From IMG/VR virus record IMGVR_UViG_2537561509_000007: a stretch of 6,054 nt of DNA; one strand, 5' to 3'. The notes below the pieces were generated by a model that was not told where the DNA came from, searched no databases, and was given only the letters and a program-made list of their open reading frames with translations. The stretch is from a virus. Lineage: Duplodnaviria > Heunggongvirae > Uroviricota > Caudoviricetes. Within the stretch, counting starts at the first letter, position 1; each line of letters starts with the position of its first letter. This document shows, piece after piece, positions 5,351 through 5,770 of the stretch. The position numbers and the translations under genes are program-made.

Positions 5351-5527
5351 TTTTTTATTTATCAATTAGTTAGATTGAATGACTCTTGAAATCCATAATT
5401 CATAGATGTTTTTTACTATTCTGTGGGTTTTTGGGTGTTTTCTAAGTTTTTTCAGATGGTTGTATTTTTTCTAAAAATCCCTAATCTCGATTTTGCTGTT
5501 TATTTGAGGCCTTTTTATGTCCCATAT

Positions 5528-5770
5528 ATGCCCCACAGATACCCCGCAGCCAAAATCAACAAAATGCCAAAAGGTTCTGTTCCTGCCCTGCAACAAGAAA
5601 TGCTGCGACGTGTCAGTAAACGTTATGACGATGTAGAAGTGATCATCAAATCCACCAGCAACGATGGCCTTTCAGTTACTCGCACCGCCGATAAAGATTC
5701 TGCAAAAACTTTTGTTCAGGAGACGCTGAAAGATACCTGGGAGTCTGCTGACGAGTGGTTTGTTCGCTAA
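5528..5770 (+). CDS. DinI-family protein, about 80 aa
   Basis: The C-terminal [11 protein letters not shown] closely matches the TWESADDWFV end of E. coli DinI, and the central region aligns by eye ([22 protein letters not shown] against LSVIGATKEDKQRISEILQE). The start is uncertain: ATG 5528 gives a DinI-like length but has no good SD, and the alternative is ATG 5564. The 5423 start of the ORF track adds a hydrophobic AT-rich extension that is probably not translated. Confidence 0.7.

What the first reader, a model, noticed from the sequence alone, without database searches (positions are those of the whole stretch)
5351..5770. DinI-family gene past the integrase remnant, with an unusual N-terminus and no LexA box seen
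The C-terminal two thirds are clearly DinI-like, but the N-terminus ([12 protein letters not shown]...) does not resemble the MR-I/V-E-V start typical of DinI proteins, and I found no CTGT-N8-ACAG motif in the 180 bp upstream. It may be a prophage-border moron with different regulation, or N-terminally altered.
Basis: partly seen in the sequence, partly recalled or inferred. Interest (0 to 1): 0.4.

Follow-up and report, generated by a model that had tools for sequence, protein, structure and literature searches.

The report
Truncated prophage dinI gene abutting attP
This is a prophage copy of the RecA-modulator gene dinI that has lost its SOS promoter, both LexA boxes and its first codons, so its reading frame now runs back into the phage attachment site and borrows a start codon there; it is an explained annotation oddity and probably a remnant, not a new system.

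Summary
ORF 5528-5770 (80 aa) is a clear DinI-family protein, its first 8 residues are aberrant, and no LexA box lies upstream (best matrix score 1.2 bits; real boxes score 19-23.5).

The cause is structural. The window is E. coli O157:H7, at the joint of two tandem prophages inserted in ydfJ. Bases ~5311-5546 form a lambda-like attP:
- two TGCCCCA repeats inside the int 3' end;
- an IHF consensus at 5360-5372;
- the core GAAATCCATAA at 5388-5398;
- a ~150-bp arm shared with K-12 Qin and with free phages such as Tritos;
- three TGYCCCA-like repeats at 5518-5546.

dinI homology starts only at ~5547-5552. A sister prophage (PPompW type) has the same three repeats, then 82 bp carrying -35, two LexA boxes, -10, a Shine-Dalgarno sequence and ATG-MRVEICIAKEK. 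The window has this layout minus ~96 bp. The called ATG lies inside the second arm repeat.

No promoter-like site or usable Shine-Dalgarno sequence remains. AlphaFold loses strand beta1 and confidence falls (pLDDT 56 against 76). All eight RecA-contact residues survive.

Most likely this is an SOS-uncoupled, poorly expressed remnant. Read-through from the int operon cannot be excluded. Interest is low.

The parts
4799..5350 (+). 3' remnant of a tyrosine integrase gene of the left-hand (Qin/Rac-like, defective) prophage. It reads towards the att site.
   Evidence: Pfam Phage_integrase E=5e-9. PGAP annotates it as a partial integrase missing the N-terminus. The 3' end is 84-85% identical to int of the free phages Tritos, HannyBb, PhiR42_1 and mEp460_ev081.
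5311..5328 (+). Two direct TGCCCCA repeats, 11 bp apart (5311, 5322), on the int side of the core. They are candidate arm-type Int-binding sites.
   Evidence: TG[CT]CCCA occurs only four times in the 6054-bp window on either strand, and all four are in the att region. Binding by Int is inferred, not tested.
5360..5372 (+). IHF consensus TATCAATTAGTTA, between the int stop codon and the core. This is the position of the H' site in lambda.
   Evidence: It is the only WATCAANNNNTTR match in the whole window; 0.47 are expected over 6 kb.
5388..5398 (.). Attachment-site core GAAATCCATAA. It falls in ydfJ codons ~28-31 (…EFMDF…).
   Evidence: This is the only block common to K-12 Qin attL (L011), K-12 attR (L007), O111 attR (L002) and the window. 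In O111, the C-terminal part of ydfJ abuts window position 5388 directly.
5399..5546 (+). Tail-side att arm (~150 bp) of ydfJ-integrating lambdoid phages. It is non-coding.
   Evidence: It is 79-85% identical to the Qin right end in K-12 and in more than 2000 other E. coli genomes, and to the attP of phage Tritos, whatever gene follows. Homology stops at 5535-5548. Its reading frame is interrupted in K-12 and L008.
5518..5546 (+). Three direct repeats at 11-bp spacing: TGTCCCA, TGCCCCA and TACCCCG. They are candidate distal arm-type Int sites. The called start codon ATG 5528 straddles the start of repeat 2 (5529-5535).
   Evidence: The block TGTCCCATATATGCCCC is invariant in the Qin, L008, L009 and Tritos arms. 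The same triple repeat precedes the dinI promoter in L015.
5546..5551 (.). Junction or deletion scar between att-arm sequence and dinI-derived sequence.
   Evidence: Arm homology ends at or before 5548. Megablast homology to canonical dinI-like genes begins at 5552. In the alignment with L015, the window lacks ~96 bp at this point.
5528..5770 (+). Annotated 80-aa DinI-like ORF. Codons 1-7/8 are att-arm sequence and the rest is dinI-derived.
5552..5770 (+). dinI-derived body, equivalent to canonical codons ~11-82. It holds helix 1, strands 2 and 3, and the acidic C-terminal helix.
   Evidence: It is 97% identical to the body of an ssrA-site prophage dinI-like gene (L004) and 85-92% identical to others. 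All eight RecA-contact positions are retained.

Best explanation
The ORF is a 5'-deleted derivative of the LexA-controlled dinI-like gene that lambdoid prophages of E. coli carry as their last gene, next to the attachment site at the tail-fibre/effector end.

In the intact layout, the three distal arm-type repeats of attP are followed within ~82 bp by:
- a TTGACA -35 hexamer;
- a LexA box between -35 and -10;
- a second LexA box over the transcription start;
- a Shine-Dalgarno sequence;
- ATG-MR(I/V)EICIAKEK.

Here about 96 bp are gone, from just after the third repeat to dinI codon ~8-10. This removes the promoter, both operators, the ribosome-binding site, the start codon and the whole first beta strand. 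The remaining frame happens to stay open back into the att arm. An ATG lying over the second arm repeat (…CATATGCCCCACAG…) gives gene callers a start, which produces 'MPHRYPAA'.

Shown:
- the att anatomy;
- the junction position;
- the absence of LexA boxes, of a sigma-70-like promoter and of a usable Shine-Dalgarno sequence;
- loss of predicted strand beta1.

Inferred:
- The gene is no longer SOS-inducible and is translated poorly or not at all from its own signals, so it is most likely a remnant.
- Any expression would come from transcripts reading across attP from the int operon. That could happen in tandem arrays such as this window, or after excision and circularisation.
- If the product is made, it keeps the RecA-binding surface but probably folds less stably.

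It is unresolved whether the loss arose by in-situ deletion or by illegitimate joining of a ydfJ-specific int-attP cassette to a dinI-bearing phage end.
For: Context:
- The window is 100% identical to O157:H7 strain Z887. A Qin/Rac-like early region lies on the left. On the right, on the minus strand, lie three NleG genes, tail fibres, Lom and J.
- In O111 the same arm plus DinI abuts the ydfJ remnant directly.
- Prophage clusters at ydfJ in O157 are published (PMC8112680).

att site:
- The core is shared by attL, attR and the window.
- int 3' end, core and arm are contiguous in free phages, and the homology ends at 5548.
- The TGYCCCA repeats occur only in the att region.
- The window's single IHF consensus lies at 5360-5372.

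Canonical relatives:
- Relatives at ssrA, prfC and dusA start MRIEICIAKEK and carry two LexA boxes of 19-23.5 bits.
- In L005 a TTGACA-18-AAAAAT promoter (10 of 12) overlaps box 1.
- L015 shows the three repeats, then the promoter and LexA boxes, then dinI. The window aligns to it with a ~96-bp gap.

Expression signals in the window:
- The LexA matrix maximum is 1.2 bits.
- There is no promoter-like site on the + strand and no terminator in 5200-6054.
- Shine-Dalgarno duplex energy is -1.5 kcal/mol for ATG 5528 and +1.1 for ATG 5564, against -3.5 to -6.3 for canonical starts.

Structure: with the same 25-sequence alignment, AlphaFold gives the window protein pLDDT 56.5 and pTM 0.42, with residues 1-9 below 50 and no beta1. 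Canonical P0009 gets 76.4 and 0.63, with beta1 at residues 2-7.
Against: - The ORF is intact in about 515 of 5426 complete E. coli genomes.
- The same arm-dinI junction is found joined to at least two or three different dinI body alleles. This could reflect retention by selection, although recombination with intact copies explains it equally well.
- All eight RecA-contact residues are identical or conservatively changed.
- No terminator separates int from the ORF, so read-through expression is possible.
- The promoter and terminator scans are simple consensus scans.
- No genome in the collection carries the postulated direct ancestor, that is, a ydfJ-type arm followed by the intact promoter and dinI.
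- No expression data were examined.
Confidence: 0.72

Rival explanations
1. The gene is a functional, SOS-box-independent RecA modulator. It is transcribed by read-through from the early-left (pL-int) operon across attP. Expression would then be coupled to prophage derepression and excision, or to tandem-array context, and not to LexA.
For: - It has the same orientation as int, with no terminator-like site between them.
- The RecA-contact residues are conserved: M13, L21, E24, D69, W71, E76, W77, F78.
- The ORF is intact in hundreds of genomes and is carried by ydfJ-site Stx2a prophage records.
- Established lambda biology (from my own knowledge, not a tool result): N-antiterminated pL transcripts cross attP into the b region.
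Against: - No usable Shine-Dalgarno sequence precedes ATG 5528 or ATG 5564. A better-placed GAGG-N7-ATG at 5517 opens a different frame.
- Strand beta1 is lost and model confidence is lower.
- An O111 allele carries W71R at a residue whose alanine substitution impairs DinI.
- In a single lysogen the gene faces away from ydfJ, with no upstream promoter.
Confidence: 0.2
2. The origin was module exchange, not in-situ deletion. A ydfJ-specific int-attP cassette was joined by illegitimate or short-homology recombination to a phage end that carried dinI. The breakpoint fell at the outer edge of the functional attP.
For: - The same ydfJ arm is followed by unrelated sequence in K-12 Qin, L009 and Tritos.
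- No genome shows a ydfJ-type arm with an intact dinI promoter.
- The junction coincides with the end of arm homology.
Against: A sister att family (L015) has dinI 82 bp beyond identical-type arm repeats, so a single ~96-bp deletion suffices. The two routes lead to the same present-day structure and cannot be told apart with the sequences held.
Confidence: 0.3
3. The true product starts elsewhere. It could start at Met13 (ATG 5564), giving a 68-aa beta1-less DinI. It could start upstream at ATG 5456 or GTG 5423, giving 104-115 aa with a hydrophobic extension, as several gene callers report.
For: The frame is open back to 5423. Database entries of 69, 104 and 115 aa exist: P0012, P0003 and P0002.
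Against: - None of these starts has a Shine-Dalgarno match: +1.1 kcal/mol for 5564 and +0.1 for 5423.
- The upstream frame lies in the att arm. It is conserved as DNA, not as coding sequence, and has stops in K-12 and L008.
Confidence: 0.1

Closest known systems
Canonical prophage DinI-like genes of E. coli lambdoid prophages (82 aa, MR(I/V)EICIAKEK…; e.g. at ssrA, prfC, dusA, and the PPompW type)
   Same: - The body is 85-97% identical in DNA from codon ~11 on.
- It occupies the same position as the terminal gene at the tail-fibre/effector end, next to the att site, reading inward.
   Different: They have a TTGACA promoter, two LexA boxes (19-23.5 bits), a Shine-Dalgarno sequence and strand beta1. 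The window copy lacks all four and starts inside the att arm.
E. coli chromosomal DinI (PDB 1GHH; RecA-DinI complex 7YWA)
   Same: It has the DinI fold signature, E=3e-9 over residues 7-79. All RecA-contact positions (L13, L21, E24, E69, W71, D76, W77, F78) are identical or conservatively replaced.
   Different: Residues 2-8 (RIEVTIA, strand 1) have no counterpart. There is no SOS box. It is prophage-borne.
Gifsy-1/2/3 dinI homologues, each the first gene of a LexA-controlled dinI-antirepressor-irsA operon (Lemire et al. 2011, PMC3121763)
   Same: It is a prophage-borne dinI homologue whose intact relatives are under direct LexA control.
   Different: No LexA box is present. No co-directional downstream gene is annotated; the next genes are on the opposite strand. 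The location is beside att, not downstream of the replication genes.
Lambda-type attP (core flanked by arm-type Int sites and IHF sites, ~240 bp)
   Same: - An 11-bp common core.
- Direct arm-type-like repeats on both sides, two and three copies, at 11-bp spacing.
- An IHF consensus between the core and the int-side repeats.
- A total span of ~5311-5546, about 236 bp.
   Different: The sequence motifs differ from lambda's. Protein binding is not tested here. The int-side repeats lie inside the int coding sequence.
PPydfJ prophage clusters of STEC (Nakamura et al. 2021, PMC8112680) and the K-12 Qin prophage
   Same: They use the same integration locus and att. Tandem arrays of two to four prophages at ydfJ in O157:H7 are described there. 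The Qin right arm is 79-80% identical to 5388-5548.
   Different: That paper does not discuss dinI (0 occurrences). K-12 Qin has no dinI remnant after the arm (tblastn).

Membership tests
DinI family (Pfam PF06183) | Profile match above the curated threshold | tested here: met
   64.4 bits against a gathering score of 24.2, E=1.2e-17. Residues 14-78 cover profile positions 1-63 of 63.
DinI family (Pfam PF06183) | Sequence homology to the structurally solved DinI | tested here: met
   1GHH/7YWA, E=3.1e-9, residues 7-79 aligned to 7-79.
DinI family (Pfam PF06183) | RecA-contact residues: the hydrophobic pocket L13, L21, W71, W77, F78 and the acidic patch E24, E69, D76 (Gao et al. 2023) | tested here: met
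   The window has M13, L21, W71, W77, F78, E24, D69 and E76.
DinI family (Pfam PF06183) | N-terminal beta strand 1 (MR-I/V-E-I/V-x-I) completing the three-stranded sheet | tested here: not met
   MPHRYPAA replaces it. The AlphaFold model has no strand before residue 39 and pLDDT below 50 for residues 1-9. The control, P0009, has E2-7.
DinI family (Pfam PF06183) | Binds and modulates RecA filaments | not testable with these tools
   This needs purified protein and RecA filament or co-protease assays.
SOS (LexA) regulon / damage-inducible gene | LexA box (CTGT-N8-ACAG type) overlapping the promoter | tested here: not met
   No match with up to 1 mismatch near the gene. The matrix maximum is 1.2 bits in 5300-5620, against at least 12.7 for the training sites and 19-23.5 for relatives.
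SOS (LexA) regulon / damage-inducible gene | Induction by DNA damage | not testable with these tools
   No expression data were examined. In the Sakai microarray paper, specific probes could not be designed for many lambdoid genes.
Gifsy-type LexA-controlled dinI-antirepressor operon | dinI homologue followed by a co-directional small antirepressor gene, preceded by a LexA box | tested here: not met
   No LexA box is present. The annotated genes downstream are all on the opposite strand: a hypothetical gene, three NleG genes and tail fibres. The unannotated + strand ORF 5877-6047 was not examined for antirepressor similarity.
Lambda-type attP of a tyrosine integrase | Core sequence common to attL, attR and attP, with int-core-arm contiguous in free phage genomes | tested here: met
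   GAAATCCATAA is shared by L011, L007, L002 and the window. Tritos, HannyBb, PhiR42_1 and mEp460_ev081 match 5200-5548 as one piece. Tritos has one mismatch in the core.
Lambda-type attP of a tyrosine integrase | Arm-type Int-binding repeats on both arms, plus IHF sites | tested here: inconclusive
   The sequence pattern fits. The repeats are confined to the att region at 11-bp spacing, and there is a unique IHF consensus. Protein binding was not tested.

The most novel reading that the evidence does not exclude
The deletion rewired the gene without killing it. With its own LexA promoter gone, the DinI-like protein would be made only from transcripts that cross attP from the int operon. That happens only when the phage genome is circular or in a tandem array. 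This would make a RecA modulator a reporter and effector of the excised state. Int bound to the arm repeats that overlap the start codon could act as an extra gate.
Probability: 0.1. Interest if true: 0.5.

Novelty: new variant of a known kind. Interest (0 to 1): 0.22.

Why it matters
Mostly this matters for annotation and for reading prophage ends. A protein that RefSeq lists as an intact 'DinI-like family protein' (WP_001120551.1) occurs in about a tenth of complete E. coli genomes, including ydfJ-site Stx2a prophages. It is a 5'-truncated gene whose first codons are attachment-site DNA. It should not be counted as an SOS gene or assumed to be an active RecA modulator.

The work also gives a sequence-level map of the PPydfJ/Qin attP: core, IHF consensus and five arm-type-like repeats. 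It shows that in the related PPompW-type prophage (L015) the dinI SOS promoter sits only ~20 bp beyond the last arm repeat. That makes the gene especially exposed to att-proximal rearrangements; several other 5'-truncated or fused variants are in the databases. If the product were nevertheless made, STEC prophage arrays would carry SOS-independent RecA modulators, which could bear on Stx-phage induction.

Tried and rejected
1. The arm as a phage-borne copy of the ydfJ 5' end (target-gene end duplication). The 'ydfJ' label on the 79-82% hits first suggested this. It is rejected. The label came from a 9-bp overlap of the annotation. The native ydfJ 5' piece in K-12 (L011 2322-2508) has no similarity to the arm. 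The arm places a stop two codons before the ydfJ Met29 codon.

2. GAGG-N7-ATG at 5517 as the ancestral dinI start, now out of frame, with CTGTTTAT near 5495 as a half LexA box left by a 40-bp deletion. It is rejected. That stretch aligns to the Qin and Tritos arms, and the ATG at 5517 is CTG or TTG there.

3. Site-specific integration into a secondary attB inside dinI (prophage-in-prophage). It is rejected because the dinI junction lies at the outer end of the arm, ~150 bp from the core, and not at the core.

4. Evidence for selection from L013 and L014, which have the same protein but 93-96% DNA identity. This is uninformative. All 13 differences cluster in 5403-5463, forming a Qin-like recombination block, and there are no differences at all in 5464-5770.

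5. RNA structure around the start. Folding 5351-5600 gives z = -0.42, which is unremarkable.

6. A search for the direct ancestor using a chimeric query (ydfJ arm plus the L015 promoter and dinI). No genome covers 80% or more of it.

7. dinI remnants beyond the arm in K-12 Qin, L008, L009 and Tritos. tblastn found none.

Full report
**1. What is there**

The window is E. coli O157:H7 DNA. It is 100% identical over all 6054 bases to strain Z887, and identical over 1-5785 in most other O157 genomes.

The ORF in question runs from ATG 5528 to stop 5770 on the + strand and encodes 80 aa. PGAP calls exactly this ORF as WP_001120551.1, 'DinI-like family protein'.
- Pfam DinI (PF06183) matches residues 14-78 at 64.4 bits, against a cut-off of 24.2.
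- The solved DinI structure 1GHH/7YWA aligns to residues 7-79 at E=3e-9.

**2. LexA box test**

CTGT-N8-ACAG with up to one mismatch has only two hits in the window, at 963 and 5957. That is no more than chance.

I built a 20-bp matrix from 19 E. coli SOS boxes. The site list was written from memory of the literature, so the matrix is approximate.
- It gives a maximum of 1.2 bits anywhere in 5300-5620. The weakest training site scores 12.7 bits.
- The same matrix finds two boxes of 19-23.5 bits at -61 and -33 in front of three related prophage genes.
- In one of these (L005), a TTGACA-18-AAAAAT promoter (10 of 12) has box 1 between its hexamers and box 2 just downstream.
- The same scan finds no promoter-like site on the + strand of 5200-6054, and no terminator.

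**3. Genomic context**

Left of the gene lies the early region of a defective Qin/Rac-like prophage:
- Cro-like and S24-repressor ORFs, DUF1391 (YdfA family), DicF, dicB and DUF1482;
- a truncated recE;
- the 3' half of an integrase gene (4799-5350).

Right of the gene, on the opposite strand, lie a small hypothetical gene, three NleG effector genes, tail fibres, Lom and J of a second prophage.

In O111:H8 strain 1074-2, the same sequence from window position 5388 onward directly abuts the C-terminal part of ydfJ. The DinI-like gene is therefore the terminal gene of the right-hand prophage, and the window is the joint between two tandem prophages at ydfJ. Arrays of two to four prophages at ydfJ in O157:H7, and an experimentally determined PPydfJ attP, are published (Nakamura et al. 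2021, PMC8112680). That paper does not mention dinI.

**4. The AT-rich stretch is an attachment site**

- The only block shared by K-12 Qin attL (int | ydfJ 5' piece), K-12 attR (ydfJ 3' part | Qin right end), O111 attR and the window is GAAATCCATAA, at 5388-5398. It lies in ydfJ codons ~28-31.
- The ~150 bp to its right (5399 to ~5546) is 79-82% identical to the Qin-type right end in more than 2000 E. coli genomes. It is conserved whatever follows: ynfT/ydfK in K-12, and a DUF4376 gene in L009.
- In the free phages Tritos, HannyBb, PhiR42_1 and mEp460_ev081, the int 3' end, core and arm are one contiguous 84-85% match to 5200-5548, and the match stops there.
- TG[CT]CCCA occurs only four times in the whole window, all in one orientation and all here. 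Two copies, 11 bp apart, lie inside the int 3' end (5311, 5322). Two lie at 5518 and 5529, with a degenerate third (TACCCCG) at 5540.
- The window's only IHF consensus, TATCAATTAGTTA, sits at 5360-5372, between the int stop and the core.

This is the layout of lambda attP: arm-type sites, an IHF site, the core, a long arm and distal arm-type sites, about 236 bp in all. The comparison with lambda rests on established knowledge of lambda. Int and IHF binding here is inferred.

**5. Where dinI begins, and what is missing**

Megablast homology to other prophage dinI-like genes begins at 5552. Arm homology ends at 5535-5548. The junction therefore lies in 5546-5551.

Relatives at ssrA, prfC and dusA encode 82-aa proteins beginning MRIEICIAKEK.

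The most telling comparison is a PPompW-type prophage whose int 3' end is ~82% identical (L015). It has the same triple repeat, TGTCCCA-N4-TGCCCCA-N4-TGCCCCA. The next 82 bp contain TTGACA, CTGGTTATCCATACAG, the -10, CTGTATATAACCACAG, AGGAGGG and ATG CGT GTT GAG…. The window aligns to this with a single gap of ~96 bp, running from just after the third repeat to dinI codon ~8-10.

The frame that remains is open back into the arm. The ATG at 5528 lies over the second arm repeat and is invariant in all arms examined, where it is followed by unrelated sequence. 'MPHRYPAA' is therefore translated attachment-site DNA. The arm is not coding sequence: K-12 and L008 have stops in that frame.

**6. Is it expressed or functional?**

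Against:
- There is no promoter-like site.
- Shine-Dalgarno pairing is -1.5 kcal/mol for ATG 5528 and +1.1 for ATG 5564. The mean for all ATGs in the window is -2.3, and canonical starts give -3.5 to -6.3.
- A better site, GAGG-N7-ATG at 5517 (-5.6 kcal/mol), opens a different frame.
- With one and the same 25-sequence alignment, AlphaFold gives the window protein pLDDT 56.5 and pTM 0.42, with no strand 1 and residues 1-9 below 50. A canonical protein gets 76.4 and 0.63, with strand 1 at residues 2-7.
- An O111 allele has W71R, and W71A impairs DinI (PMC9926225).

For:
- All eight RecA-contact positions defined by the RecA-DinI cryo-EM structure are identical or conservatively changed.
- The ORF is intact in ~515 of 5426 complete genomes.
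- The same junction is joined to several dinI body alleles that match canonical alleles.
- No terminator separates it from int.

The allele mosaicism is as well explained by homologous exchange among the many prophage dinI copies as by selection. The one nucleotide comparison I could make showed a recombination block and no informative substitutions.

I therefore commit to 'SOS-uncoupled remnant, poorly if at all translated' at roughly 0.6-0.7. 'Functional through read-through across attP' stands at about 0.2.

**7. Origin**

There are two possible routes:
- a simple ~96-bp deletion in a phage that had arm, promoter and dinI;
- illegitimate joining of a ydfJ-specific int-attP cassette to a dinI-bearing end.

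A chimeric query representing the first route's ancestor found no genome covering 80% or more of it, so this stays open.

A site-specific event is excluded, because the junction is at the outer end of the arm and not at the core. My early idea that the arm is a copy of the ydfJ 5' end was tested and rejected.

**8. Comparison with what is known**

- It is a DinI-family member by sequence. It fails two features of typical members: strand 1 and the SOS box.
- It is unlike the Gifsy arrangement, in which a dinI homologue leads a LexA-controlled antirepressor operon (PMC3121763). Here there is no LexA box and no annotated co-directional downstream gene.
- Other 5'-altered variants exist in the protein database: P0008, P0028, P0033, P0044, P0074, and the int'-dinI fusion P0037. 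This fits a gene exposed to rearrangement by its position next to att.

**9. Verdict**

This is a degenerate variant of a known kind. It is of low general interest, but it is a useful correction to annotation and gives a clean sequence-level map of the PPydfJ/Qin attP.

Noticed in passing
window 2881-2932 (+), with dicB at 3107-3295: A full-length DicF sRNA lies upstream of dicB (Rfam RF00039, 75 bits against a gathering score of 48). This confirms that the left-hand prophage is Qin-like.
   Followed up: partly
window 3573-4817 and 4799-5350: The 414-aa ORF has a RecE/ExoVIII N-terminal domain and then runs into the integrase remnant. In strain 9000 the homologous prophage has a 798-aa exonuclease, xis and a full int. 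This prophage has therefore lost the recE 3' part, xis and the int 5' part in one deletion. PGAP leaves 4375-4798 unannotated.
   Followed up: no
window 5517-5636 (+): A 39-aa ORF in another frame overlaps the DinI-like 5' end. It has the best Shine-Dalgarno match in the region (GAGG-N7-ATG, -5.6 kcal/mol). Its ATG is CTG or TTG in the Qin, Tritos and L009 arms, so it is probably fortuitous. It could still capture ribosomes on any transcript.
   Followed up: partly
window 5388-5785, compared with strain 9000 (L001, L010) and Z887 (L003): O157 genomes carry two or three copies of the arm plus DinI segment at the ydfJ cluster. The window's full arrangement (int remnant, DinI, three NleG genes) is found intact only in Z887. 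Most strains diverge after 5785 into IS256/IS66 remnants, and have the 5200-6054 arrangement behind a full-length int elsewhere. This suggests that the repeated segment served as a substrate for homologous recombination between the tandem prophages.
   Followed up: partly
L013 and L014, equivalent to window 5403-5463: Two non-O157 genomes encode the identical protein. They differ from the window at 13 positions, all inside a 61-bp block of the att arm that resembles the K-12 Qin arm. The sequence is identical on both sides of the block. This is a small recombination patch inside an attachment-site arm.
   Followed up: partly
protein P0037 (database); equivalent to roughly window 4814-4945 joined to ~5592 onward: One E. 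coli entry is an in-frame fusion of the integrase-remnant ORF (MIIRRNLAKDRF…ALTRL) to DinI residues from QQEML onward. It represents a further deletion across the whole att site.
   Followed up: no
window 599-1237 (+): The ORF scan gives a 212-aa repressor with both an HTH and a Peptidase_S24 domain. PGAP annotates only the last 112 aa as 'LexA family protein'. The literature says the Sp11 and Sp12 repressors are disrupted. The state of this repressor was not resolved.
   Followed up: no
window 5767-5901 (-): A 44-aa hypothetical ORF (WP_001480712.1) overlaps the DinI-like stop codon by 4 bp, convergently. It was not submitted to any family search.
   Followed up: no
L002 / L007, ydfJ side of the core (window 5388-5398, minus strand): The core contains the ATG (ATGGATTTC, Met-Asp-Phe) that K-12-style annotations could use as the start of the truncated YdfJ. 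The arm puts a stop two codons upstream of it. Integration therefore removes the first 28 residues of YdfJ and does not restore them.
   Followed up: partly
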